From an uncultured Candidatus Saccharibacteria bacterium (GTDB lineage: Bacteria; Patescibacteriota; Minisyncoccia; Phycocordibacterales; UBA12088): a stretch of 64,000 nt of DNA. A model generated the notes under the pieces. It made no database searches. It was not told the origin of the DNA and saw only the letters and a list, made by a program, of their open reading frames with translations. Shown here in pieces: positions 26,087-63,626 of the stretch; the first letter of the stretch is position 1, and every line of letters begins with the position of its first letter. The DNA lies in contig CAYPKR010000001.1 of the NCBI GenBank assembly GCA_964411375.1, forward strand, positions 238,807 through 302,806. The letters run 5' to 3'. Position numbers and translations under genes: made by a program.

Positions 26087-26435
26087 GGAACGAAAATCCT
26101 ATCTTAAAAAGAAAGAAGGCGCAACTTTTAGCGAGAAAGTTTTGAAACTTGCACTTTCTATTCCAGAAGGAAGGGTCGCAACCTATGGGAATATTTCATA
26201 TGCGGCGGGCGGAGGAGCGATGGCCGCACAGAGTATTACCACCATTCTTGGCAAGGCATTCAATGCAGGGGAGAAGCGAATTCCATTTCACCGTATTGTA
26301 TACGCTGATGGAAGAGTCTGGCTGAATTCAAAGTATGATACTGAACGAAAGAAACGATACAAAAAAGAAGGAATTGAAATTGACGCGAAGGGACGGATCA
26401 AAAATTTTGAAAAAGTTCGAATTGAATTCAAATAA
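26085..26435 (+). CDS. Alkyltransferase-like (ATL) protein: MGMT/Ogt C-terminal DNA-binding domain with the active-site Cys replaced (PFHR instead of PCHR)
   Basis: 116 aa from MERKSYLKK; block TYGNISYAAGGGAMAAQSITTILGKA..IPFHRIV aligns to the Ogt C-domain. Confidence 0.65.
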   Translation: MERKSYLKKKEGATFSEKVLKLALSIPEGRVATYGNISYAAGGGAMAAQSITTILGKAFNAGEKRIPFHRIVYADGRVWLNSKYDTERKKRYKKEGIEIDAKGRIKNFEKVRIEFK

Positions 26436-26439
26436 AATA

Positions 26440-26925
26440 ATGCAGATTCCCCGAGGGCTCAAAATCGTCAAATCTTCAAAGCAAGGACTTGGGATTTTTA
26501 CTAAGAAATTGTTTCGACCGGACGAAACTATTTTTGAAGTGACCGGTCGATTTATTTCTGGAGATGCAGACGCTGATGTTGACCCCGAAACACAAGCAAA
26601 TGCATTCCGCTTCGATGAGGACGTGTATATCGATCCTGGGGAGAAGATCGGTAAGTATCTCAATCACTCATGCAATCCAAACGCGTATGTAACAAAAGTC
26701 AGGAAGAAATTATTTGTGAAAGCCGCCAGTCCGATTGTCGCCGACAAAGAAGTGGTAATTGATTATTCCACTATTCTTGCGTCTGATGATATTTGGACGC
26801 TTCGGTGTACGTGTGGAAGTAGGAAATGTCGGAAAAGTATCAAACGATTTGATACACTCCCTAAAAAATTACAAGCGTCGTACCGCGAGCGGGGAATAGT
26901 GCCGGAGTATATACTGAAGATATGA
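26440..26925 (+). CDS. Second SET-domain protein with post-SET Cys cluster
   Basis: 161 aa from MQIPRGLK; NHSCNPN, EVVIDY, CTCGSRKCRK. Confidence 0.75.
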   Translation: MQIPRGLKIVKSSKQGLGIFTKKLFRPDETIFEVTGRFISGDADADVDPETQANAFRFDEDVYIDPGEKIGKYLNHSCNPNAYVTKVRKKLFVKAASPIVADKEVVIDYSTILASDDIWTLRCTCGSRKCRKSIKRFDTLPKKLQASYRERGIVPEYILKI

Positions 26926-35880: not shown

Positions 35881-36390
35881 ATGAATTCAAAAGCACTTAT
35901 CGGACTATTTGCGGTCGTTGTTCTAATCGGAGCAGGTATTTGGTTTATTAATGCTGGAAATACCACACCGAAGGATAATACTGCCGCAGTAACAACGGGT
36001 GGAGATTCGATGGACGGCATGGACATGGGATCTACCACGACTGACACGAACGCTACCGATACTTCTTCAGGCGTAACAACGGATGTCGACGCAACAGCCG
36101 GAGTAACTACGGGAACCACCAAGGAATTCACCGTTACTGGTTCTAACTTTGCGTTTTCACCAACCACGCTCACCGTCAACAAGGGCGATCACGTGAAGAT
36201 CACCTTCAAGAACAGTGGCGGATTCCACGACTTTGTTCTCGATGCATTCAAGGTCAAAACTGATCGTATTAATGGCGGAGATTCAGCTGTCGTTGAATTC
36301 GATGCAACACAGTCAGGTAGTTTCGAATATTACTGCTCAGTTGGCAACCACCGTGCAATGGGCATGAAGGGAACCTTGGTTGTTAAATAG
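35881..36390 (+). CDS. Cupredoxin (type-1 blue copper, plastocyanin/azurin-like) protein with Thr-rich linker
   Basis: 169 aa; ligand pattern FHDF ... C-SVG-NH-RAMG-M (His, Cys, His, Met). Confidence 0.65.
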   Translation: MNSKALIGLFAVVVLIGAGIWFINAGNTTPKDNTAAVTTGGDSMDGMDMGSTTTDTNATDTSSGVTTDVDATAGVTTGTTKEFTVTGSNFAFSPTTLTVNKGDHVKITFKNSGGFHDFVLDAFKVKTDRINGGDSAVVEFDATQSGSFEYYCSVGNHRAMGMKGTLVVK

Positions 36391-36402: not shown

Positions 36403-37683
36403 TTGTCGAACCCAAACGTCATCGAAAGTGACATGCGGGCAGCAGCGTACATGGATAGAAAGAGCAACATCACGCATCAGACGATCCGTTTAGTCGCGGT
36501 AATCGCCATTCTTTTCTCCGGAGTGTTCTTACTCCCCGGCGGCGTTAGCGCGGCAACGGCGACACAACCGCTCGAGGTTTCCGGATGGATTCCGTATTGG
36601 AGAGCTGCAACCGGAACCGCAGATTTTCTGAACCACATCGACACTTTCAAGGAGATCAATCCGTTCATCTACACAATGAAAGCAGACGGCACCATTTACG
36701 ATGCCGCAGGAGTCACTGAAGGTCCGTGGCCGGCTCTCATTGCTGCTGCAAAAGCAAAAAAAGTGCGCGTCATCCCAACTATCATGTGGGGAAATGGAGA
36801 CGCGATTCATGCGGTCCTCTCAAATACTAAATCGAGAATCGCGCTTGAAGACGCAATAACCGCACTCGTCAAACAAAATAATTTTGACGGTATCGATATC
36901 GACTTTGAAGGGAAAAAGGCAGAAACAAAAACCTATTTTGCTACGTTCCTGAAGGGATTGTATCAACGAATGGGAAATAAATGGGTGATGTGCACCATCG
37001 AGGCACGCACTCCGCTTGATTCGCGTTACACCGGTACTCCTCCAGCAGACGCGACAATGTACGCAAATGATTATGTTGCGATCAACAAATACTGCGATCG
37101 AGTGCGCATAATGGCGTACGACCAAGGAACAATCGACGTAAAATTAAACGCCGATGAGAGTGGTCCATACGTGCCCGTTGCTGATCCACGTTGGGTAGAA
37201 AAAGTAATGAATGTTGCGGCGCAAACAATTTCAAAAAAGAAATTGATGATCGGCATTCCGACCTACGGATACGAATATGAGACGGTGCCGCTTTCAGAAG
37301 GTAAGTATGTCTACAACATGATGTGGGCGTTCAATCCGAAATACGCAACCGACTTAGCCGCACAGCAGGGTATTGTACCGTCTCGCAATTCTGCCGGAGA
37401 AATGAGTTTCCTCTACGACACCAAGAGTCTCGTTCCGGGAACAGTAAATCAAAATAATATAGACACTACGACGCCAACGGTCGTCTCAACCGAAGGAAGC
37501 ACTCAGACGACCACTACCAATCCGGGCTACACCTCGTACCATATCCTTTGGTGGAGTGATGCATCAGCAATAAACGATAAAGTGCAACTTGCTAAGAAAT
37601 TGGGACTTCGCGGTGTGTCTATCTTCAAGATCGACGGAGGGGAAGATCCGAATATGTGGAATGTGTTGCCGCTTCAGCGATAA
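36403..37683 (+). CDS. Glycoside hydrolase family 18 (chitinase/YaaH-like) secreted protein
   Basis: 426 aa; catalytic DGIDIDFE motif. Confidence 0.7.
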   Translation: MSNPNVIESDMRAAAYMDRKSNITHQTIRLVAVIAILFSGVFLLPGGVSAATATQPLEVSGWIPYWRAATGTADFLNHIDTFKEINPFIYTMKADGTIYDAAGVTEGPWPALIAAAKAKKVRVIPTIMWGNGDAIHAVLSNTKSRIALEDAITALVKQNNFDGIDIDFEGKKAETKTYFATFLKGLYQRMGNKWVMCTIEARTPLDSRYTGTPPADATMYANDYVAINKYCDRVRIMAYDQGTIDVKLNADESGPYVPVADPRWVEKVMNVAAQTISKKKLMIGIPTYGYEYETVPLSEGKYVYNMMWAFNPKYATDLAAQQGIVPSRNSAGEMSFLYDTKSLVPGTVNQNNIDTTTPTVVSTEGSTQTTTTNPGYTSYHILWWSDASAINDKVQLAKKLGLRGVSIFKIDGGEDPNMWNVLPLQR

Positions 37684-38513: not shown

Positions 38514-39218
38514 ATGGAACACTTTCGAACCACGAAGCGCGGTGCAACCCCACTTGGCGTCGCACTCACTATAATTATTCTTATTTTGATCGCAGGAGGT
38601 ATTTTTTACCTTTTACCTTCTACACCACCAACTTCCGTAGATACTGGAACTCCGACGACCACTAATCCAGTAGCATCGACAACGCCGCTCACGAGCTACA
38701 TGAGCGATCAATATCATTTCTCAATCGAATACCCACAAAACCTTGAAGCAACCTCCACATTCAATGGATATCAGCATGTCGCGACAAGTTGGCGACAGGG
38801 AGCGGTAGATACACCAAAATCAGGCACGCCGGTTGTTTCAATTATTGTCGACTCACTCATGAATAATCCTGGTGAAGAAGGATATTACTACGACGCAGAA
38901 CTTCGTATCGGCGTCAGTACCACTGCAAGTGCAGTAACTAATTGTCTTACAGTTGACGCAGACGAAGATTCTGCAACAACATCGATCGCCGTTGGTGGCA
39001 TCACCTTCACCCACTTTACCCGCGAGAGTGCCGGTATGAGTCAGTTTGGCAAAGTAGATAGTTATCGCACAGTACACAACAAAACTTGCGTCGCCGTCGA
39101 GGCAATCATCGCGGGCGGCGGAACGGCGCTCAATAATCCAAGCCAGTCACCAGAGCGTGCTGCTACGGACAAGCAGATGATGCAAAGCATTCTTCAGACG
39201 TTTGCGTTCACTGACTAG
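38514..39218 (+). CDS. Hypothetical secreted protein
   Basis: 234 aa; signal anchor, Thr/Pro-rich linker. Confidence 0.4.
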   Translation: MEHFRTTKRGATPLGVALTIIILILIAGGIFYLLPSTPPTSVDTGTPTTTNPVASTTPLTSYMSDQYHFSIEYPQNLEATSTFNGYQHVATSWRQGAVDTPKSGTPVVSIIVDSLMNNPGEEGYYYDAELRIGVSTTASAVTNCLTVDADEDSATTSIAVGGITFTHFTRESAGMSQFGKVDSYRTVHNKTCVAVEAIIAGGGTALNNPSQSPERAATDKQMMQSILQTFAFTD

Positions 39219-39303
39219 TTCTCCCCATCTCAGATCGCTCCAATTCGCGGTATACTTATCTCATTCCGCACGGCGGAGCATTGATAATTAATTACTGTTC
39301 ATA

Positions 39304-39636
39304 ATGAATACAACGACCAAAGTGATCGCTGTCCTCATCGTGCTTGGTGCGATTGGAGGCGGCGCGTATCTTCTTCGGAAGGATACCCCGAGTGAACCGA
39401 TAGTAGAGCAGCAAACTACGGAAACACCCGAGCAGGAACAGCCAACCGTAACAACCGCATCTTCAACACTTCCTGTTGCTAGCGGTGATATCGACTCCGA
39501 CCTTGCCGCACTTTCTGCCGAAGCCGCATTTGAAGGCACGCTTGCTGCAGATAATACTGCGGATGGCACCGCCGCAATGGACGATAGAGCCGACATTACC
39601 AGCATCAACGATTCCTATGGTGAAAATAATTTCTAG
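39304..39636 (+). CDS. Hypothetical membrane-anchored acidic protein
   Basis: 110 aa ORF. Confidence 0.35.
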   Translation: MNTTTKVIAVLIVLGAIGGGAYLLRKDTPSEPIVEQQTTETPEQEQPTVTTASSTLPVASGDIDSDLAALSAEAAFEGTLAADNTADGTAAMDDRADITSINDSYGENNF

Positions 39637-40384
39637 TCCTGCCGTGAAGAAATTCGTCAGTGCATCAATTGCAGTGGCTCTTATTGCCCCAGCACTTGCG
39701 TTTGCTCACACAGAGAATGAGGCGGCAGTGGCACAAGCACCAAAAGGATTTTGTGCGAATGTCGCTGAATTTCAAACAACCGTAAGCGGTACGCTTGCCG
39801 AACGCCTTCAAAAGATCGAAAGCAAAAAAGCAGATCGGTTGAAGCAGATTGCAGATAATCGCACAAAACGCGATAAGGAACTCACTGAAGATCGCGCCCA
39901 GTGGGATCAGAATCGCGCAGAACATTACGCAAAATTGCTTGAAAAGGCATCTACTACTGATCAGCAGACTGCAGTCGGAGCATTTAAGACAACGATTGAA
40001 AACGCCGTAACTGCACGCCGTGCCACAATTGACGCCGCAGTTAAGGCATACCGAGATGGTGTTGATCAGGCGGTTGGTGCTCGCCAAGGTAGTACTGCTA
40101 GTGCGGAAGCCGCAATAAAAACTGCATTCGATACCGCTCTCCAAACTGCAGTTACTGATTGTGCTGCTTCGAAAGATCCGAAGACTGTTCGCACCACCGC
40201 CATGGCAGCGCTTAAAAAGGCACGCACTGATTTCACCACTGCAATGAAAGCACTCGATAAGTCAGATACGACGATTCAAACGCTTGCAAAGACTCGCAGT
40301 GATGCGGTAAAGAAGGCGATTGCTGATTTTGATACAACTCGAAAGTCAGCAGCTGAAACACTTCGCGCTGCATGGAAAAAATAA
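39617..40384 (+). CDS. Hypothetical secreted alpha-helical Ala/Lys-rich protein; start taken at MVKIISSPAVKKF
   Basis: Signal peptide AFAHTENE; repetitive helical composition. Confidence 0.4.
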   Translation: MVKIISSPAVKKFVSASIAVALIAPALAFAHTENEAAVAQAPKGFCANVAEFQTTVSGTLAERLQKIESKKADRLKQIADNRTKRDKELTEDRAQWDQNRAEHYAKLLEKASTTDQQTAVGAFKTTIENAVTARRATIDAAVKAYRDGVDQAVGARQGSTASAEAAIKTAFDTALQTAVTDCAASKDPKTVRTTAMAALKKARTDFTTAMKALDKSDTTIQTLAKTRSDAVKKAIADFDTTRKSAAETLRAAWKK

Positions 40385-40515
40385 GCCAGGAACGATTAGG
40401 CTAGGGGTGAAGTCCTAAGTCAAGTAATCGAGGTCAACACACGCCGTCTCCATATGAGGCGGCGTGTGTTAGTATGTCACCCATATTGCTAACCACCCGT
40501 AATTCTTCATGAAAT

Positions 40516-41430
40516 ATGAAATATCTCGCTAGCCTTACTCTCGTACTTATTCCAACTCTTTCTTTTGCTGCAGTGCAGTCAAATATCACCACTTCTGTTG
40601 ATGGCACAACCGTCCATCTCGATACGGCAACTGGTGTGCACGATGTGCAGATCCAAAATGTACAAGTGGTAAATGGAGAAGTGCAGGTCGAGACAACCGT
40701 TGACGGTAAAACTATTAAAACTATTTCGACTCCGTCAGGAAACGGCACAAAAACCACAGTGACGGTCGACGGTGTAACGCGCGTGTTTGAAGGTGCACTG
40801 CCAACTGAATTTGCAACAATCACTGCCGATGGCTCCAACATACGCATAACAGGCGATACGGTTACTATTACGAAGGGGGAAGGAGGAGCGCAGTCATTTT
40901 CAAAAATCCAGCTCTCAAATGAAGTGTCGTCAGACGAAGGCGGTATGCGCACCATTCGCGCTTCAAAGGCACACGACAGCGCAGTATTCACTTCTCTTCT
41001 GTCGGTTGGAGCCATTTCTGCCGATCCAGTTACTGTAAAGTCAGACGAAGATTTGTCGCTCTACGCAGCAAATGTGGTCAGTCGTAACTCGGACATCGAT
41101 TCTGCAGCATTTGGCGGCGGTTCAATTGATGTATCTCTTCGCGACCACACAAAACTCTTCGGCGTGATTCCCATGAATCGCACGTACCATGTACTTGCGT
41201 CAAAACTCGATTCTGATTCAAATGTCCAAGTTCAGCTCCCATGGTGGAATATATTCGCTGCTAAACCGGCAATCGCGGAGGGAAATACCAAAGCAAAGCT
41301 ATCCGAAAATCTGAAGGCGGCAGTTACCGGAGCTTCTACAACTGCAGGAAAACAAGCACTTGCACTCGCAACGATTGCAAATACACTGCAATTAAGCGCA
41401 GAAGCGAATGCTTCCGTGGAAACACATTAA
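40516..41430 (+). CDS. Hypothetical secreted protein
   Basis: 304 aa; signal peptide LSFAAVQS. Confidence 0.4.
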   Translation: MKYLASLTLVLIPTLSFAAVQSNITTSVDGTTVHLDTATGVHDVQIQNVQVVNGEVQVETTVDGKTIKTISTPSGNGTKTTVTVDGVTRVFEGALPTEFATITADGSNIRITGDTVTITKGEGGAQSFSKIQLSNEVSSDEGGMRTIRASKAHDSAVFTSLLSVGAISADPVTVKSDEDLSLYAANVVSRNSDIDSAAFGGGSIDVSLRDHTKLFGVIPMNRTYHVLASKLDSDSNVQVQLPWWNIFAAKPAIAEGNTKAKLSENLKAAVTGASTTAGKQALALATIANTLQLSAEANASVETH

Positions 41431-41875
41431 TCACTTCATTTGTTCTATGTTCCATTCAAAATATGCGAAATGGTTTCTTCTTCTCTTGGCTGTCGTAATA
41501 ATCGGCGGTGGAGCACTGGCATTTATTCTTCGTGGTACATTGGTTGCGACGGGAGAACATGGCACGCTTCGCGGTCAGGTGACCGTTGGACCACTCTGTC
41601 CAGTTGAACATACCGGCACTACTTGTACTGATCCAGTCAGTGCAAATCGTTCGAGAGAAGTTATTGTGTATGCGGCAACAGTTTTGAAAAAAGAAGTAGC
41701 CCGAACCAATTTGTCGCCGTTCGGAGAATACACACTACAACTTCCACCTGGCGAATATACCGTCGACATGGGATACGTTGGGGTCGACTCATCAAAAGAT
41801 CTTCCGCACCAAGTAACAATCAAACCAGGCGAAACAACGGAATTCAATTTCTCAATCGATACCGGCGTCAGATAA
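41408..41875 (+). CDS. Hypothetical secreted protein
   Basis: 155 aa; TM anchor. Confidence 0.35.
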   Translation: MLPWKHINHFICSMFHSKYAKWFLLLLAVVIIGGGALAFILRGTLVATGEHGTLRGQVTVGPLCPVEHTGTTCTDPVSANRSREVIVYAATVLKKEVARTNLSPFGEYTLQLPPGEYTVDMGYVGVDSSKDLPHQVTIKPGETTEFNFSIDTGVR

Positions 41876-44149: not shown

Positions 44150-44315
44150 AGGTTTGAGGGAGTTTGGTCACAGATAATTTTGCTTCGCAACATCTCCGCG
44201 ACCCCGCCTCAAGAAAAGTCCCCCGGACTTTTCTTTCCGGCTTTCAATACCACCGGAGCTTTCTATCTCCACAAGAAAAATAAAAACGCCTTCCTAGGCG
44301 TTTTTATTTTTCTTG
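44150..44315. repeat. tRNA-3'-flank element copy C (downstream of tmRNA) with the 44-nt core cgaccccgcctcaagaaaagtcccccggacttttctttccggct
   Basis: ~86% identical to the copy A core, with compensatory changes in the hairpin; begins ttggtcacag like the other copies. Confidence 0.55.
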
Positions 44316-44705
44316 TGGAGATGGGGGGATTGAACCCCCGTCCGAAACGGGGCAGGGTTGCGTTCTACAAAGCGTATTCTACTTTATTCCTTTAGGCCGG
44401 TATGGTCGAAGTAGACCAAATGCATACCGAACCGATCTCCTTATTTAACGGGTGTGCCGGAGCATTCACACACGCGAATCCGAATTATATTACACCAGCT
44501 CTAACCTATCGGATGAAGGAAAGAGGGATGCGCTTATGCAGTTGCGTAAGCGAACGCGAAGTCGTTCATCTGGAAAGGAGATAAAACTGACTTTGCGCGT
44601 GCGAGAGTATTCTTTGCACTTATTGGTTCCAGTTTTTTAGGAAGGACTGGGCTTCCGCTTCGCTCGCAGACTCTACGGAACCGAATCGTCGAAACTGACA
44701 TCCCC
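44316..44705 (-). ncRNA. ssrA: tmRNA (SsrA), CCA not encoded; 3' end embedded in a 24-bp hairpin (44262-44322)
   Basis: 5' GGGGATGTCAGTTTCGACG..., tRNA-like acceptor with G3-U70 wobble, T-arm GGGGGTTCAATCCCCC, ~390 nt; adjacent to smpB. Confidence 0.8.
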
Positions 44706-57276: not shown

Positions 57277-57525
57277 TGCGTTTTTGAGTATAGCAAAGGG
57301 TCGATTTTTCGCAAGCAGTATAAAAAAGGATGACCCGCGTTTCGCGCGGGTCCATTCCACCGTCCTCACATGTAGGTTCTTGCCCAAGCGTCCATCTGAG
57401 CCTGATACAAAGCATCGAGGATTTTCCATGCCCTGTTTCGTTCTCGAAGCCAGAGGTAGACATCAACTCCGCTAAGGAGTATCGATACTCCAACAATCAG
57501 GAGAACAAACTCTCCGTCTGCCATC

Positions 57526-57900
57526 TCATTCCCTCGTCTCTGCAAGCTGACTGCAAAATCTCACAAGTGCTCGTCTGTGCTGCGGGCTGGGGATTTCCGT
57601 GAAATCAGCGAGAAGCCTCTTCAATTGTTGCTGATCTCCGGTCAGACCGCCTTTTGGCAATCCTTCGTAGAAATAACTTACCTCTACTCCAAGCGCATGT
57701 GCAATTATGAGCAAACGACCGACCGCAACTCGGTTGATACCCTTCTCATACTTGCACAGCTGTTGGTAGGAGACACCTATCAAATTTGCCAACATCTGTT
57801 GGCTAAGGCGTAGCTCTTTACGTCGCTGGCGTATGCGCACGGCGACATGCCGGTCCGCATCGTTGACCCTATGCTTAGTATCAGTAACCGTATCCGGCAT
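57526..57900 (-). CDS. XRE-family HTH transcriptional regulator, divergent from groES
   Basis: 124 aa; HTH_3 core LRLSQQMLANLIGVSYQQLCKYEKG. Confidence 0.75.
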   Translation of the reverse strand: MPDTVTDTKHRVNDADRHVAVRIRQRRKELRLSQQMLANLIGVSYQQLCKYEKGINRVAVGRLLIIAHALGVEVSYFYEGLPKGGLTGDQQQLKRLLADFTEIPSPQHRRALVRFCSQLAETRE

Positions 57901-58061
57901 CCGAACACCTCCCTCATGATGCTCTCAAAACTGAGGAGCATTACTTCCTGCACAAAACACTAAAAATACACTCGAGTCAATAGTATCGTTTACTCGGCTA
58001 CACTATAATGATGCCTTCACAATAATAATTTATTGGTAATCCCTCTTGGGGCACAAAATAT

Positions 58062-58451: not shown

Positions 58452-60128
<1,677 letters not shown>

Positions 60129-60157
60129 AAATTCCAAAAATAAAACATAAAAAGAGA

Positions 60158-60188
60158 ATCCCCGTGCGGCCTCTGGCCGCACGGGGAT
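60158..60188. terminator. GC hairpin aatccccgtgcggcc/ggccgcacggggatt between convergent groEL and the 60208 gene; U-tract on the minus side
   Basis: 15-bp perfect inverted repeat. Confidence 0.6.
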
Positions 60189-60207
60189 TTAGAACTCTGA
60201 GGCTCAG

Positions 60208-60798
60208 CTACCCGAAATTTAAGTAGACTGATACGCCGATGCTGAACGGGGTGTAATCGGTGGAATCCTTCGGCCATGGAACCGTTGGAGCAGTGTATTC
60301 CCACTTCGCTCGCTGATGTTCTGGATATCCGAAAGCGTACATGACGACGTACACATAATTCGGCCGGTAGCAGTTCGGCATGAACGTGGCGAGCATTGTG
60401 TCGTCAAACGTCGCCATCACATTCCACACCTCGCGACCTGTGTCTGCATGAAATTCCCAGTGGGGGTACGCATCCACACCGAAGCCCTGGATGTAGAGTC
60501 GAAGGCGATCACGCTCCTCGATCTCCCACTGATTCCGGGAGAAGCGGATAAAAACATCTTCCTTAAAGGCCTGCGCCATACTTGTGGGCATCCATCGTCC
60601 CACACTATGTTCCCAGTTGTCGGTCGTGAACGATGCGAGCTTTGCTTCGTTGCATCCGTTATCTGACAATGGCTTTGTCGGAGACTCATTGGTATTTGCA
60701 ACCGCTTCTACTATAAAAGGATTCGGAGTAGGTGCGTCATTATTACCTAGCGATGTACCAACAAGCAGCATGATGATACCGAAGATGGATGTACGCAT
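60208..60798 (-). CDS. Hypothetical secreted protein; first gene of a higher-GC island
   Basis: 196 aa; signal peptide. Confidence 0.4.
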   Translation of the reverse strand: MRTSIFGIIMLLVGTSLGNNDAPTPNPFIVEAVANTNESPTKPLSDNGCNEAKLASFTTDNWEHSVGRWMPTSMAQAFKEDVFIRFSRNQWEIEERDRLRLYIQGFGVDAYPHWEFHADTGREVWNVMATFDDTMLATFMPNCYRPNYVYVVMYAFGYPEHQRAKWEYTAPTVPWPKDSTDYTPFSIGVSVYLNFG

Positions 60799-60944
60799 CG
60801 AAGTTGTCCCGAGCTGTTATCCTATGCGGGTTGTACGCCTCAAATCAGGCTTTGTCAACTCATTTTTTACACCACATATTTTTAAAGCACGCAAATCTGC
60901 TTTATGGCAAAGTATCCGAAGTCTGTTCAACTATGTGAGGTCAC

Positions 60945-61529
60945 ATGCGACCAATGCTCTGTCTCCTCCCCTCGCTTCTTATCGGAAGTCAGGTGGAAGC
61001 GGCAACCTACCATCCTTTTGCCAAAGAGGGCGATGGAAAATATTCAAGCGGTATAGTCGTTTCCTCGCTTCGGGGAGACGGGGGTCAACTTCGAGTCACT
61101 TCCGACCAGTACGCGGTTGCCCTCAATCAAGCAAGTGGAGAAAATTATTCCGCGAGCGACTGGGCGCAGTTTTTCGCACAGGGTAAGGTGGTGTCATGCA
61201 CCGACAAACTTCTCTCTGGCGGGATTCAGCGTCTCGACAATGACAACAACGTCAGCGCCTGGAACCGTTCGTGTAAAGATGGCGAGCAAGTTCTCGTCGC
61301 TCTCGACAATACCGGACGCGAGGTCGGGTGGGTAAGTCTCTCTTGCCTGAACCCGATAATGCATGAAGTATCGGCTGTCCAAAAAAACTGCCGCATTCTA
61401 CCAACACCAGCCCCACCGAGCGGTGCGGCATGCGGAGTGGGAAGCGGTACGTACTATTTCGGGAACTACAGTGATGCTTGCGGAATGGCAGGCACTTCTC
61501 CAACAACTCCCGTAACGGTCTGTGACTAG
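60945..61529 (+). CDS. Hypothetical secreted Cys-rich protein
   Basis: 194 aa; signal peptide LLIGSQVEA. Confidence 0.4.
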   Translation: MRPMLCLLPSLLIGSQVEAATYHPFAKEGDGKYSSGIVVSSLRGDGGQLRVTSDQYAVALNQASGENYSASDWAQFFAQGKVVSCTDKLLSGGIQRLDNDNNVSAWNRSCKDGEQVLVALDNTGREVGWVSLSCLNPIMHEVSAVQKNCRILPTPAPPSGAACGVGSGTYYFGNYSDACGMAGTSPTTPVTVCD

Positions 61530-61544
61530 GAAGGAATCGGACTA

Positions 61545-62120
61545 ATGACAACGATGCCAAGATCTTTGATCGCGCTTTTCTTCCTCGCGCCGCTTCTTGC
61601 AAGCTGCATGGGGACGGACAGCCAAAGTATCTCACTGACACCCTCTCAGCATGTGGTCGCAGTAGTCACTACCGAACGGGGGATTACTGGCGCCGATGTC
61701 ACCGTCGTCAATCATTTTCAGTGCGGCAAGATGCCGGTGTGGAATGCTGAGCGACAAGCCTACCAGGTCACTGAAGAAGATACCTGCGTCGCTCTTGCAC
61801 CGTTTGCTGGAACAACGGCTGCGCCCTTCTCACAACTTGGCAATGCTGCGGTGACTGCCGTAGGTGAAGTGCTCGCGGCACGGCAGTTGCCTGGCGGAGG
61901 GGACACGAATGTAACGAGCGGCAGTTCCGCAGATGGCGGAGATGCCAATGCTTCGAACGAAAACAATAACTCCAATACTGCCCATGGTGGTAAGGGAGGT
62001 TCGGGCGGTTCGAGTCGTGTAGGTATTGATATCGACAATCGCGTTAGCGGGGGTGGGCGACACTGCGCCAATAAAAGATGCGGCGGAAGCCATCCTAATT
62101 GGGGGAAGCTGGGATCGTAA
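61545..62120 (+). CDS. Hypothetical lipoprotein (lipobox LLASC) with Gly/Asn/Ser-rich C-terminus
   Basis: 191 aa. Confidence 0.4.
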   Translation: MTTMPRSLIALFFLAPLLASCMGTDSQSISLTPSQHVVAVVTTERGITGADVTVVNHFQCGKMPVWNAERQAYQVTEEDTCVALAPFAGTTAAPFSQLGNAAVTAVGEVLAARQLPGGGDTNVTSGSSADGGDANASNENNNSNTAHGGKGGSGGSSRVGIDIDNRVSGGGRHCANKRCGGSHPNWGKLGS

Positions 62121-62271
62121 TAGATTTTCTTGATTGTGCTCGGAGCTGGCAACGGCTCCGAGCGTTTCTTTTTAAGATGGCAGCCATTGATTTTTTAACA
62201 AACTGTAGTATAAATCACCGAGAATCGTCTCTGCTACGCTGGCAGATATCCTTAGCAACGGAGTCTAAGCC

Positions 62272-62898
62272 ATGTTTCGCAACCTTGCTTGTCTTCTCTT
62301 CGCTTCCTGCGTGACAATCTCTGGTGCTGTCTCGGCAAGTAATTTGCCATGTGCTCAAGTCACCATTCCCGCGATGGAGCAATATCCATTTCACCCGGGT
62401 GACTGGGTTTCAAAAGTGTGTCAATTTGCTAAAGAAAACAACCTCTTGGCAAAGGGTATCGACACTATCGATCAATGCATCGATGCGACAAGATGCACGA
62501 TGTATCCCGATGCTACCCCAGCGGAATGGGAAAAATTGTCGGCAACGGTATTTCAGGATGGCCGTGAATACCCAATCGCGGTTGACCCCGATGCGGTGGA
62601 TGCATTCTTTAATGTAGCGTCTCAGCCTGATTCGCCCCCAGCAACAACTGATGCTTGGCGGAAGAATATAGAGGCGCGAATGACGCTTCTCGAAAACAAC
62701 TTCGTGGCTCTAAAGCAGTCGGCTAGAATTGACCCGAGCGTTCAAGGCAGACTTCTCGTTCTGGAGGCATTTAAAGTAGCTACCGAAAAACGTCTCGATC
62801 GGCAGGAGCTTTTCCTCTTAGTACTTCATAGTGAAGCTTGCAGGAGATCTCCCAGTTCAGAGGAATGCACTACTCCCGTCGACGCTCCGAGCAGTTAA
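62272..62898 (+). CDS. Hypothetical secreted protein (possible lipoprotein, LFASC)
   Basis: 208 aa. Confidence 0.4.
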   Translation: MFRNLACLLFASCVTISGAVSASNLPCAQVTIPAMEQYPFHPGDWVSKVCQFAKENNLLAKGIDTIDQCIDATRCTMYPDATPAEWEKLSATVFQDGREYPIAVDPDAVDAFFNVASQPDSPPATTDAWRKNIEARMTLLENNFVALKQSARIDPSVQGRLLVLEAFKVATEKRLDRQELFLLVLHSEACRRSPSSEECTTPVDAPSS

Positions 62899-63030
62899 AG
62901 TATGCTCAAGCTAGTATCATTACCCGAGGCGCGCTGCGCGCCTCGGGTATCTTTTTACAAATTTTTTGAGACTCTTCAAAAAACAAAAATCACTGGTATA
63001 ATACTGGTACTATTCTTAATATTTCATTCT

Positions 63031-63591
63031 ATGAGCCCTCTATACATAATTCTTGCCGTCGTCGTTCTCGCACTCCTTTGGGCGGTTATTGCCTACAACG
63101 GTTTCGTGCGGCTCGTAAATCGCACTAAGGAAGCGTGGGCAGACATCGATGTTCAACTCAAACGCCGGTATGATCTCATTCCTAATTTGGTAAATACGGT
63201 CAAAGGATATGCGACACATGAATCAGGTGCATTTGAAAAAGTAACTGAAGCACGTTCACGCGCAATGCAAGCATCAACGCCTGCAGAAAAAGGCGCCGCA
63301 GAAAATATGCTCTCCGGAACACTTAAATCACTCTTTGCAATTTCGGAAGCGTACCCTGATCTCAAAGCGAATCAGAATTTTCTTGCGCTTCAGAGTGAAC
63401 TCTCCGACACCGAAAATAAAATCCAGGCGGCAAGACGCTTTTATAACAGCAATGTCCGTGATCTCAACACCGCAATCGAATCATTTCCAGGAAATGTCAT
63501 TGCATCGAGTTTCCATTTTTCAAAAATGGATCTCTTCGAACTTGGCGATTCTGACGCAGCGGCAAAAAATCCAGTCGAGGTAAAATTCTAA
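63031..63591 (+). CDS. lemA: LemA family protein; ORF opens at 62902, start taken at MSPLYIIL before the TM
   Basis: N-terminal TM plus the LemA core NGFVRLVNRTKEAWADIDVQLKRRYDLIPNLV. Confidence 0.75.
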   Translation: MSPLYIILAVVVLALLWAVIAYNGFVRLVNRTKEAWADIDVQLKRRYDLIPNLVNTVKGYATHESGAFEKVTEARSRAMQASTPAEKGAAENMLSGTLKSLFAISEAYPDLKANQNFLALQSELSDTENKIQAARRFYNSNVRDLNTAIESFPGNVIASSFHFSKMDLFELGDSDAAAKNPVEVKF

Positions 63592-63626
63592 TCTCTTTGT
63601 TCGTTACTATTTCCGGATGATAATTC

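What the first reader, a model, noticed from the sequence alone, without database searches (positions are those of the whole stretch)
60158..62898. Higher-GC island of four small secreted proteins/lipoproteins between groEL and lemA
Local GC is ~52% against ~40% for the window. The four ORFs (one minus, three plus) all begin with signal peptides or lipoboxes (LLASC, LFASC), are Cys- or Gly/Asn-rich, and have no recognisable domains. The island starts right after a strong bidirectional terminator. This suggests horizontally acquired surface or secreted factors (adhesins, toxins or host-interaction proteins).
Basis: seen in the sequence. Interest (0 to 1): 0.5.

Follow-up and report, generated by a model that had tools for sequence, protein, structure and literature searches.

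The report
Fast-evolving exported-protein genes beside groEL
Four real genes for exported, cysteine-rich proteins found only in one small clade of ultra-small (Parcubacteria/Paceibacteria) bacteria sit in a variable slot between groEL and lemA; this is a fairly ordinary lineage-specific gene block, and their function is unknown.

Summary
The composition anomaly is real. Region 60158-62898 has 51.8% GC against 45.9% for the window (not ~40%), and it has the highest GC and tetranucleotide deviation in the 64 kb.

All four ORFs are real genes:
- Each has an N-terminal export signal.
- ORF3 has a lipobox that is conserved in relatives. ORF4's 'LFASC' is not a credible lipobox.
- Cysteine is enriched 5.8-fold.
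- No family, structure, phage or defence library gave a hit.

The organism is a Paceibacteria (CPR) bacterium. groEL and lemA are linked in 52 of 69 related species, with a spacer of 28 bp to 7.6 kb holding unrelated content.

This block occurs only in this genome and two close lineages (GroEL 94-95% identical). There it has the same order, an orthologous terminator and an 81%-identical bidirectional promoter. So it is inherited within a genus-level clade and is not a recent foreign insertion. It carries no mobility genes, repeats or tRNA.

Protein divergence from the relatives is uneven: ORF2 60%, ORF3 55-67%, ORF4 34% (N-terminal domain only), ORF1 about 25%. dN/dS is 0.1-0.4, against 0.01-0.03 for groEL and lemA.

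ORF1-3, but not ORF4, escape the genome-wide GC3 drop seen in all 13 flanking orthologs. I read this as allele import by homologous recombination from a GC-richer relative. Nothing supports an adhesin or toxin role.

The parts
58473..60128 (+). groEL, the conserved left flank of the slot
   Evidence: 551-aa ORF. The homologs in L002/L003 are annotated Cpn60_TCP1 and are 94-95% identical. It was used to fetch 80 related loci.
60157..60189 (.). Terminator hairpin shared by the convergent genes groEL and ORF1
   Evidence: 15-bp stem with 11 G-C pairs; T-tract on the minus strand only. Folding energy -34 kcal/mol on either strand, z about -8. It is orthologous in L002/L003, with a compensatory T-A to C-G change in the stem.
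60208..60798 (-). ORF1, an exported 196-aa protein (a gene caller started it at M10, giving 187 aa); the most divergent gene of the block
   Evidence: N-terminus MRTSIFGIIMLLVGTSLG|NN, with two Cys in the mature part. GC3 is 0.579, above all 49 background ORFs. A full HMMER search of 1.84 billion representatives found only itself. It shares its start codon, promoter and terminator with the 181-aa gene of L002/L003, but protein similarity is marginal (about 25% identity; Smith-Waterman z 2.8-4.1).
60796..60917 (.). Conserved divergent promoter region between ORF1 and ORF2
   Evidence: 81% nucleotide identity to L003, like groEL (83%) and lemA (80%). ORF2 is about 70% identical and the ORF1 body cannot be aligned. 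It is 100% identical between L002 and L003. It contains TTGTCA-17-CATATT on the plus strand (60852-60880). By inspection, the overlapping reverse-complement TTGACA is followed 17 nt later by TACAAC on the minus strand.
60945..61529 (+). ORF2, an exported 194-aa cysteine-rich protein
   Evidence: Signal peptide ending VEA|AT, with GAGG 5-8 nt upstream of the ATG. All seven mature-part Cys are invariant in the L002/L003 orthologs, which are 60% identical. dN/dS is 0.17-0.43. GC3 is 0.533.
61545..62120 (+). ORF3, a predicted lipoprotein of 191 aa, probably co-transcribed with ORF2 (15-bp gap)
   Evidence: The lipobox LLAS-C21 is conserved as LLTS-C in L002/L003. Residues 22-115 are conserved, the Gly/Asp/Asn-rich tail is variable, and the C-terminal C..R.G.S.P..NWG motif is conserved. 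The family has only 3 members among 5.8 billion clusters. dN/dS is 0.12-0.26. The AF2 model shows a small five-strand beta domain (residues 32-84, pLDDT 58-72) and the rest disordered.
62136..62165 (+). Intrinsic terminator after ORF3
   Evidence: 13-bp stem followed by TTCTTTTT; -23.4 kcal/mol, z = -4.4.
62272..62898 (+). ORF4, an exported 208-aa protein with its own transcription unit
   Evidence: Signal peptide ending VSA|SN, with GGAG 10 nt upstream of the ATG. The N-terminal ~113 aa are 34% identical to the 354/356-aa proteins of L002/L003. Those proteins continue into a long Q/A/L-rich, coiled-coil-like region and a C-terminal membrane anchor that are missing here. GC3 is normal (0.464).
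62921..62949 (+). Intrinsic terminator after ORF4
   Evidence: 13-bp stem with 10 G-C pairs, followed by TCTTTTT; -26.8 kcal/mol, z = -7.5.
62975..63002 (+). lemA promoter-like site
   Evidence: TTCAAA-16-TG-TATAAT, 10 of 12 matches. DNA similarity to L002/L003 resumes at 62974.
63031..63591 (+). lemA (186 aa), the conserved right flank of the slot
   Evidence: Pfam LemA, E = 3e-61. 94% identical to L002/L003. lemA lies downstream of groEL in 52 of 69 related species.

Best explanation
The stretch is a clade-specific module of four exported proteins in a variable slot between two ancestrally linked housekeeping genes, groEL and lemA, of a Paceibacteria (CPR/Patescibacteria) bacterium.

Shown:
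- All four are real genes under purifying but relaxed selection.
- They form three transcription units. ORF1 (-) and ORF2-ORF3 (+) diverge from a promoter region as conserved as the housekeeping genes. ORF4 has its own signals.
- The module, its promoter and its terminator are shared with two related lineages, so it was present in their common ancestor.
- It is absent from all more distant relatives examined and from every other sequence collection searched.

Inferred:
- The proteins leave the cytoplasm by the Sec pathway. ORF1, ORF2 and ORF4 are cleaved by signal peptidase I.
- ORF3 is lipid-anchored at Cys21 to the outer face of the cell membrane, with a disordered Gly/Asn-rich tail.
- The many conserved cysteines form disulfide bonds outside the cell.
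- The proteins act at the cell envelope or surface. That exposure is why they diverge faster than their neighbours.
- The ORF1-ORF3 segment of this genome keeps a GC3 of 0.53-0.58, typical of its GC-richer relatives, while all flanking orthologs have dropped. The likeliest cause is that this allele entered by DNA uptake and homologous recombination anchored in the conserved flanks, after this lineage's GC had fallen.
- About half of the GC excess (GC2 of ORF2-4) simply reflects protein composition: less Ile and Lys, more Cys, Pro, Asn and Ser.

The biochemical role (binding partner, host or wall interaction) is unknown.
For: Real genes:
- dN/dS is 0.17-0.43 for ORF2, 0.12-0.26 for ORF3 and 0.33-0.36 for ORF4, against 0.011-0.03 for groEL and lemA.
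- The relatives conserve the cysteines, the lipobox and the signal peptides.

Export:
- All four N-termini look like export signals.
- Cysteine is enriched 5.8-fold.

Slot:
- lemA lies downstream of groEL in 52 of 69 species, with spacers from <200 bp (11 species) to >=3 kb (5 species) holding unrelated genes.

Shared ancestry of the block:
- L002 and L003 carry it in the same order.
- The terminator is orthologous, with a compensatory stem change.
- The promoter core is 81% identical although dS is about 1-2.

Restriction to the clade.

No mobility signatures.

Separate history of ORF1-3:
- Their GC3 (0.53-0.58) exceeds that of all 49 background ORFs (maximum 0.518).
- All 13 flanking orthologs have lower GC3 here than in L003 (mean -0.069, sd 0.039). 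ORF1 is +0.09 (z 4.1), ORF3 +0.063 (z 3.4), ORF2 -0.005 (z 1.7) and ORF4 -0.065 (z 0.1).
- Other exported orphan genes in the window have high GC2 but normal GC3.

Recombination at this locus:
- Between L002 and L003, nucleotide identity is 99-100% for the 181-aa gene and promoter, 83-86% for the ORF3 and ORF4 homologs, and 93-95.5% for groEL and lemA.
- dS ranges from 0.03 to 0.50 along the same locus.

Background from the literature:
- com genes are conserved across CPR, and transformation with ~1-kb homology arms works in Saccharibacteria (PMC10633639).
- Most detected gene transfers in Patescibacteria are between Patescibacteria (PMC12455944).
Against: - ORF2 (60%) and ORF3 (55-67%) are no more diverged than the least conserved cytoplasmic neighbours (EAL 47%, HTH 58%, HAD 65%). 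'Fast-evolving' strictly applies only to ORF1 and ORF4.
- The codon-usage likelihood test for a relative-like origin has weak power (ORF1-3 at -0.006 to -0.022, against 0.017 +/- 0.017 for window genes).
- dS between this genome and the relatives is saturated for both block and flanks, so it cannot date an import.
- No donor allele was found.
- Genes in the slot of other species are not significantly enriched in N-terminal hydrophobic segments (26/51 against 320/784, p = 0.19).
- Lipoprotein processing genes (lgt, lspA) and disulfide-forming enzymes were not seen among the window ORFs scanned against Pfam, and the rest of the genome was not available.
- The substrate-binding protein in the window uses a membrane anchor rather than a lipobox.
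- The structure models were too poor to give a fold.
Confidence: 0.55

Rival explanations
1. The block was inherited purely vertically. The GC3 excess of ORF1-3 has a local cause, such as GC-biased gene conversion at a recombination hot spot or gene-specific codon selection, and not import of a foreign allele.
For: - The locus is a recombination mosaic in the relatives.
- Block GC3 is similar in both lineages (about 0.47-0.58) although their genome backgrounds differ (0.42 against 0.505).
- The promoter and terminator are orthologous.
Against: - In L003 the block's GC3 does not exceed that genome's background (z -2.1 to +0.7), so no general GC-raising process is visible there.
- ORF4 lies in the same slot and shows no excess.
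Confidence: 0.25
2. One reading: a recently acquired genomic island from an unrelated donor, encoding adhesins, toxins or host-interaction factors.
For: - Composition is atypical.
- The block is absent from 80 related species.
- The slot is variable.
Against: - The block is syntenic in two lineages separated by dS of about 1, with conserved regulatory DNA.
- There is no integrase, tRNA or direct repeat.
- No homolog was found in any other taxon, virus or defence/toxin library.
Confidence: 0.07
3. A secreted bacteriocin or toxin with partner or immunity proteins. Small Cys- and Gly-rich exported peptides are used against competitors or hosts, and polymorphism is driven by an arms race.
For: - The products are small, exported, Cys-rich and Gly-rich.
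- ORF1 is extremely divergent while its promoter is conserved.
- The relatives carry an extra 142-aa membrane protein that could act as an immunity protein.
Against: - No toxin, immunity or dedicated transporter domain was found.
- This genome has no membrane-protein partner in the block.
- The proteins are 170-190 aa when mature, larger than typical bacteriocins.
- dN/dS is below 1 throughout.
Confidence: 0.05
4. Some or all of the ORFs are chance open frames in GC-richer non-coding DNA.
For: - Several overlapping ORFs of 100-200 aa occur on the other strand.
- ORF1 has no detectable homolog.
Against: - ORF2-4 are conserved as open frames with dN/dS well below 1 and invariant cysteines.
- ORF1 has genome-typical codon usage (z 0.18), an export signal and a terminator directly after its stop codon.
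- ORF1's start codon is positionally conserved with the 181-aa gene of the relatives.
Confidence: 0.02

Closest known systems
Flank-anchored replacement islands ('minimal mobile elements' of Neisseria; the capsule and O-antigen loci work similarly). Recalled from my own knowledge, not from a paper read here.
   Same: - Conserved core genes frame a slot whose content differs between related genomes.
- There are no mobility genes, repeats or tRNA.
- Nucleotide identity is mosaic, consistent with homologous recombination.
- The organisms belong to a group that carries DNA-uptake genes (PMC10633639).
   Different: - Here the same block persists across the only three lineages that have it.
- Exchange is inferred from GC3 and from the mosaic between relatives. 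It was not seen as alternative cassettes within one species.
- The alleles differ by divergence, and possibly by replacement of ORF1.
Genomic islands and within-phylum gene transfer described in Patescibacteria (PMC12455944)
   Same: - A compositionally deviant stretch in a Paceibacteria genome.
- That paper reports hundreds of islands, with most transfers occurring between Patescibacteria.
   Different: - This block is only 2-2.7 kb, whereas that paper describes islands up to 45 kb long, 40 of them over 10 kb.
- It carries only exported orphan proteins.
- It is old enough to be shared by lineages separated by dS of about 1.
Variable surface lipoproteins of reduced-genome bacteria (Mycoplasma Vlp/Vsa, Borrelia Osp/Vls). 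Recalled from my own knowledge.
   Same: - A small-genome organism.
- A lipobox protein with a low-complexity tail (ORF3).
- Surface-exposed products that diverge faster than housekeeping genes.
   Different: - No tandem repeats, silent cassettes, invertible promoters or homopolymer switches were found.
- There is a single copy per genome and no paralogs in the window.
- There is no sequence similarity to those families.
Small secreted cysteine-rich proteins (effector-like proteins of fungi and other eukaryotes)
   Same: - Signal peptide, 170-190 aa mature length and multiple conserved cysteines.
- Lineage-restricted, with no domains.
   Different: This is an analogy of form only. There is no homology, the organism is a bacterium, and no host or target is known.

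Membership tests
Classic horizontally acquired genomic island | Base composition or codon usage differs from the host genome | tested here: met
   - 51.8% GC against 45.9%, the top GC and tetranucleotide deviation of the window.
- GC3 of ORF1-3 is above all 49 background ORFs.
- ORF4's excess comes from amino-acid composition only.
Classic horizontally acquired genomic island | Mobility signatures: integrase or transposase, adjacent tRNA/tmRNA, flanking direct repeats | tested here: not met
   - No repeats of 30 nt or more touch the region.
- The nearest tRNA or tmRNA is more than 15 kb away.
- None of the four ORFs has any domain.
Classic horizontally acquired genomic island | Patchy presence among close relatives, or an identifiable donor | tested here: not met
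   - The block is present and syntenic in both close lineages available.
- It is absent only from species with GroEL identity of 85% or less.
- No donor was found in protein, metagenome or viral collections.
Bacterial lipoprotein (Lgt/LspA substrate): ORF3 | Lipobox [LVI][ASTVI][GAS]C at residues ~15-35, after a charged n-region and a hydrophobic core | tested here: met
   The N-terminus is MTTMPRSLIALFFLAPLLAS-C21. The Cys and its context are conserved as LLTS-C in L002/L003.
Bacterial lipoprotein (Lgt/LspA substrate): ORF3 | The genome encodes lgt and lspA | not testable with these tools
   Only the 64-kb window is available. The ORFs scanned against Pfam showed neither gene.
Bacterial lipoprotein: ORF4 ('LFASC') | Lipobox cysteine correctly placed and conserved | tested here: not met
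   - The Cys is at residue 13, inside the hydrophobic core.
- The orthologs lack it and end in AMA|E.
- A VSA|S signal peptidase I site follows.
Sec signal peptide (signal peptidase I type): ORF1, ORF2, ORF4 | n-, h- and c-regions with small residues at -3 and -1 | tested here: inconclusive
   By inspection the candidate sites are SLG|NN, VEA|AT and VSA|SN, and the N-terminal hydropathy is high. No trained predictor was available.
Flank-anchored replacement cassette (minimal-mobile-element type) | The same conserved flanking genes hold different content in related genomes | tested here: met
   groEL and lemA are linked in 52 of 69 species. The spacer ranges from 28 bp to 7.6 kb and its ORFs are unrelated.
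Flank-anchored replacement cassette (minimal-mobile-element type) | Direct evidence of allele exchange by homologous recombination at the locus | tested here: inconclusive
   - Identity and dS are mosaic between L002 and L003.
- ORF1-3 of this genome have discordant GC3.
- No donor allele or mapped breakpoints were found for this genome.
Polymorphic toxin, bacteriocin or anti-phage defence module | A recognisable toxin, immunity, transporter or defence domain | tested here: not met
   Pfam, NCBIfam, PHROGs and PADLOC gave no hit above noise.
Target of a diversity-generating retroelement | A template/variable repeat pair and a nearby reverse transcriptase | tested here: not met
   No repeat involves the region anywhere in the 64-kb window. 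The rest of the genome was not available.

The most novel reading that the evidence does not exclude
The groEL-lemA spacer may be a clade-wide cassette slot in Paceibacteria, where genes for exported or surface proteins are swapped between relatives by DNA uptake and homologous recombination. In this clade, ORF1 would be a hypervariable exported protein. Its promoter, start codon and terminator are kept at housekeeping-level conservation, while its coding body has diverged, or been replaced, to about 25% identity. That would make it a determinant of host, phage or competitor interaction under diversifying selection.
Probability: 0.2. Interest if true: 0.5.

Novelty: new member of a known kind. 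Interest (0 to 1): 0.3.

Why it matters
Paceibacteria and other CPR bacteria are thought to live attached to other microbes, but outside Saccharibacteria almost nothing is known about which surface molecules mediate this. Lineage-restricted, disulfide-rich exported proteins that diverge faster than their neighbours, under a strongly conserved promoter, are reasonable candidates for that interface. A conserved groEL-lemA frame also gives a simple way to catalogue such genes across metagenomes.

As it stands, this is one more block of orphan exported genes in a phylum where a large share of genes is uncharacterised (my own knowledge). The main value of this check is to replace 'recent foreign island of adhesins or toxins' with a better-supported and more modest description.

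Tried and rejected
Homology searches with no useful result:
- Pfam, NCBIfam, PHROGs and PADLOC scans of all four proteins gave nothing. The best hit was ORF3 against RlpA, at 14 bits against a cut-off of 201.
- PDB sequence and profile searches matched only the Gly-linkers of scFv constructs to ORF3's tail.
- A full HMMER search of ORF1 against 1.84 billion representatives found only itself.
- Word-indexed searches found only self for ORF2 and for the ORF4 N-domain profile. The ORF3 profile found the three known members.
- The ORF2 and ORF4 negatives are weak. That tool missed homologs (P0010-P0013) that are demonstrably in the collection.
- JGI metagenome pattern scans for ORF2 and ORF3 found nothing.
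- IMG/VR scans for all four found nothing.
- Sensitive HMM searches of the six-frame translations of 80 related loci found nothing.
- There are no paralogs in the window.
- Profile-profile comparison shows no relationship among the block's own proteins.

Structure prediction:
- The AF2 model of ORF1 from a single sequence had pLDDT 30 and is unusable.
- The AF2 model of ORF3 from 3 sequences had pLDDT 41. Only a roughly 50-residue beta domain reached moderate confidence.
- Foldseek against the PDB gave a best E-value of 0.36, which is meaningless.

Other tests:
- The codon-usage likelihood ratio between this genome and L003 leans towards L003 for ORF1-3 but has too little power.
- Slot genes in other species are not significantly enriched in N-terminal hydrophobic segments (p = 0.19).
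- Three literature searches for CPR lipoprotein machinery or Cys-rich secreted proteins returned nothing specific.

Readings rejected:
- A diversity-generating retroelement target: no repeats.
- A prophage remnant: no phage-family or viral hits.
- An RNA element in the region: no Rfam hits.


Full report
**Observation**

The stretch 60158-62898 has 51.8% GC. Among sliding windows of the same length (mean 45.8%, sd 1.8%) only windows overlapping this stretch reach its value, and the next independent peak is 48.9%. Its tetranucleotide deviation is also the largest in the window, 0.299 against 0.191 +/- 0.025.

The four ORFs exist as described:
- ORF1, 60208-60798 (-)
- ORF2, 60945-61529 (+)
- ORF3, 61545-62120 (+)
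- ORF4, 62272-62898 (+)

None has a hit in Pfam, NCBIfam, PHROGs, PADLOC or PDB sequences.

Each begins with a charged N-terminus, a hydrophobic core and a small-residue cleavage motif:
- ORF1: SLG|NN
- ORF2: VEA|AT
- ORF3: LLAS-C21
- ORF4: VSA|SN

I had no trained signal-peptide predictor, so this rests on inspection.

ORF3's lipobox is canonical, and the relatives conserve it as LLTS-C. ORF4's 'LFASC' is not convincing. Its Cys is residue 13 inside the hydrophobic core, and the orthologs lack it.

Cysteine is 5.8-fold enriched (2.92% against 0.50%, p = 4e-11). Ile and Lys are halved. The Gly/Asn-rich character is confined to ORF3's C-terminal half.

**Transcription signals**

The hairpin at 60157-60189 is very stable (-34 kcal/mol, z about -8). 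It lies between the convergent genes groEL and ORF1, and its T-tract is on ORF1's strand only. Further terminators follow ORF3 (62136-62165) and ORF4 (62921-62949). A promoter-like site precedes lemA (62975-63002).

lemA therefore starts at 63031 and encodes 186 aa, as in the relatives. It does not start at 62902.

The block has three transcription units: ORF1 (-), ORF2-ORF3 (+, 15-bp gap) and ORF4 (+).

**Organism and wider context**

The exact ORF3 and ORF4 proteins occur on one NCBI contig of 513,972 bp. A GroEL search of one genome per species returned only Patescibacteria of the Parcubacteria/Paceibacteria type (Kaiserbacteria, Adlerbacteria and others). The best match was 85% identical.

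Of the 69 loci with at least 1.5 kb downstream of groEL, 52 have lemA downstream on the same strand. The spacer lengths are:
- under 200 bp in 11 loci
- 200-450 bp in 6
- 450-1000 bp in 15
- 1-3 kb in 15
- 3 kb or more in 5

So groEL and lemA are an ancestral pair, and the spacer between them is a variable slot.

The content of the slot is unrelated from lineage to lineage. It includes N-terminally anchored proteins of 1380-2274 aa and an RTX-like repeat protein. By a crude hydropathy test, slot genes are not significantly enriched for N-terminal hydrophobic segments (26/51 against 320/784, p = 0.19).

None of the four proteins is detectable in these 80 loci by tblastn or HMM search.

**Close relatives**

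Two metagenomic contigs, L002 and L003, have GroEL 94-95% and LemA 94% identical to the window. They carry the same arrangement:
- groES-groEL
- a minus-strand 181-aa gene
- an ORF2 homolog (60% identical)
- an ORF3 homolog (55-67% identical)
- a 354/356-aa protein whose first ~113 residues match ORF4 at 34%
- an extra 142-aa membrane protein
- lemA

The relatives' ORF4 homolog continues into a long Q/A/L-rich, coiled-coil-like region and a C-terminal membrane anchor, both missing here.

The post-groEL hairpin is orthologous and shows a compensatory T-A to C-G change.

The 120-bp core of the ORF1/ORF2 intergenic region (60796-60917) is 81% identical to L003. That is the same as groEL (83%) and lemA (80%) and well above ORF2 (about 70%). 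The ORF1 coding body cannot be aligned at the DNA level. Since dS between these lineages is about 1-2, that non-coding core is under strong constraint.

The core contains TTGTCA-17-CATATT on the plus strand. By inspection, the overlapping reverse-complement TTGACA is followed by TACAAC on the minus strand. This suggests a shared bidirectional promoter.

ORF1 and the 181-aa gene share the start-codon position, strand, size and terminator. Their protein similarity is only marginal: about 25% identity, Smith-Waterman z 2.8-4.1, with 1-16 of 1000 shuffles reaching the score and controls at z <= 1.5. I read them as hyper-divergent positional orthologs. In-place replacement cannot be excluded.

**Selection**

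| Gene | dN/dS |
|---|---|
| groEL, lemA | 0.011-0.03 |
| ORF2 | 0.17-0.43 |
| ORF3 | 0.12-0.26 |
| ORF4 | 0.33-0.36 |

(All.)

These are real genes under relaxed purifying selection. dN is 10 to 30 times that of groEL.

As a caution, ORF2 and ORF3 are about as diverged as the least conserved cytoplasmic neighbours (EAL 47%, HTH 58%, HAD 65% identity). Only ORF1 and ORF4 are true outliers.

**Rarity**

- ORF1 has no relative among 1.84 billion representative proteins in a full HMMER search.
- The ORF3 profile finds just three proteins among 5.8 billion clusters.
- Clusters of all the block's proteins have 1-3 members.
- JGI and IMG/VR scans are negative.
- The word-indexed searches for ORF2 and ORF4 missed homologs known to be in the collection, so those two negatives are weak.

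**Origin of the GC excess**

Splitting GC by codon position gives:

| | GC2 | GC3 |
|---|---|---|
| Background (49 ORFs) | 0.39 | 0.424 +/- 0.043 (maximum 0.518) |
| ORF1 | 0.43 | 0.579 |
| ORF2 | 0.50 | 0.533 |
| ORF3 | 0.55 | 0.531 |
| ORF4 | 0.46 | 0.464 |

High GC2 reflects amino-acid composition. Another run of exported orphan genes at 38.5-41.9 kb shares the high GC2 but has normal GC3. The GC3 excess of ORF1-3 is therefore a separate signal.

In L003 the homologous block has GC3 typical of that genome, whose background is 0.505.

In paired orthologs, all 13 flanking genes have lower GC3 here than in L003 (mean -0.069, sd 0.039). The block genes compare as follows:

| Gene | GC3 difference, window minus L003 | z |
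|---|---|---|
| ORF1 | +0.09 | 4.1 |
| ORF2 | -0.005 | 1.7 |
| ORF3 | +0.063 | 3.4 |
| ORF4 | -0.065 | 0.1 |

So the ORF1-ORF3 unit, bounded by the two terminators at 60157-60189 and 62136-62165, has not shared this lineage's GC decline. ORF4 has.

The simplest reading is that this allele was imported from a GC-richer relative by homologous recombination. A local GC-raising process such as biased gene conversion is the main alternative. A codon-usage likelihood test leans the same way but is weak.

Recombination does act at this locus. Between L002 and L003:
- the 181-aa gene and promoter are 99-100% identical at the DNA level
- groEL and lemA are 93-95.5% identical
- the ORF3 and ORF4 homologs are 83-86% identical
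- dS ranges from 0.03 to 0.50 along the locus

The literature supports the mechanism as plausible. DNA-uptake genes are conserved across CPR, and transformation with ~1-kb homology arms works in Saccharibacteria (PMC10633639). Most transfers detected in Patescibacteria are between Patescibacteria (PMC12455944).

**What is not there**

- No integrase, transposase, tRNA or flanking repeats
- No Rfam element
- No repeats of the diversity-generating-retroelement type
- No paralogs in the window
- No relationship among the four proteins

Structure prediction failed for ORF1 (pLDDT 30). For ORF3 it gave only a small beta domain with a disordered tail (pLDDT 41), and no meaningful fold match followed.

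**Verdict**

The composition anomaly and the exported, cysteine-rich, domain-less nature of the four proteins are confirmed. 'Recent horizontally acquired island of adhesins or toxins' is not.

The block is a clade-specific module in a variable groEL-lemA slot. It is inherited within a genus-level group, evolves unevenly fast, and in this genome probably had its ORF1-3 allele replaced by recombination.

Its function is unknown. My working model, which is inferred, is a set of Sec-exported, disulfide-stabilised cell-envelope proteins: one lipid-anchored (ORF3) and three soluble or wall-associated.

This kind of finding is common in CPR genomes, so interest is modest.

Noticed in passing
window 62902-63591: The mechanically listed 229-aa lemA ORF reads through the ORF4 terminator (62921-62949) and a strong promoter-like site (62975-63002). 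The real lemA start is 63031, giving 186 aa, as called in the relatives.
   Followed up: yes
window 63592-63626; L003 16189-18006: In L003, a 605-aa DUF2207 gene lies between lemA and the M48 (HtpX-like) peptidase gene. It begins in the same place in L002, where the contig ends. In this genome it is absent: only about 35 bp separate lemA from the peptidase gene.
   Followed up: partly
window 57318-58053: The Xre-type HTH gene and intergenic DNA upstream of groES cannot be aligned with L003 at the DNA level. The HTH protein is 58% identical over 62 aa, and its GC3 of 0.52 is unusually high. groESL is therefore flanked by variable DNA on both sides.
   Followed up: partly
window 2168-2217 and 44199-44248: A 50-nt repeat (84% identical) that contains a terminator-like hairpin lies immediately 3' of tRNA-Thr(CGT) (2257-2330, -) and of the tmRNA gene (44315-44705, -).
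   Followed up: no
window 38514-41875: A run of domain-less proteins with N-terminal anchors or signal peptides (234, 302 and 304 aa, plus a 155-aa CarboxypepD_reg-like protein). It has the second-highest tetranucleotide deviation in the window. Its GC2 is high but its GC3 is normal, so it serves as a useful contrast to the island.
   Followed up: partly
L002 2694-6577 against L003 11734-15617: The two relatives are a mosaic at the DNA level. The 181-aa gene and promoter are 99-100% identical, the ORF2 homolog 96%, and the ORF3 and ORF4 homologs 83-86%. The 142-aa gene is 97% identical, with dN/dS of about 1.2. groEL and lemA are 93-95.5% identical. This points to recent recombination within the block.
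   Followed up: partly
L007 11835-12767 (-); L014 11814-18638; L016 11708-15850; L033 13211-17704; L040 11960-17890: In other Paceibacteria the groEL-lemA slot holds unrelated genes. L007 has an RTX-like GGxGxD-repeat protein whose GC is 0.51 against 0.43 in the flanks. L014, L016, L033 and L040 have N-terminally anchored giant proteins of 1380-2274 aa.
   Followed up: no
L004 11802-13278: The closest species-level relative (GroEL 85% identical) has an analogous layout after groEL. A minus-strand exported protein of about 180 aa begins at MRTILTITAALFG, and a plus-strand exported protein carries (GDK)n repeats. Neither shows detectable similarity to the block's proteins.
   Followed up: partly
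window 26335-26925; 35881-36390; 36403-37683: This small-genome bacterium encodes a SET-domain protein (E = 5e-12), a cupredoxin-like exported protein and a GH18 glycosyl hydrolase. The hydrolase has the highest GC3 (0.518) of the 49 background ORFs used.
   Followed up: no
method: The word-indexed homolog search returned only self for ORF2 and ORF4. Their 60% and 34% identical homologs (P0010-P0013) are nevertheless representatives in the same collection. Negative results from that tool should be treated as weak.
   Followed up: yes
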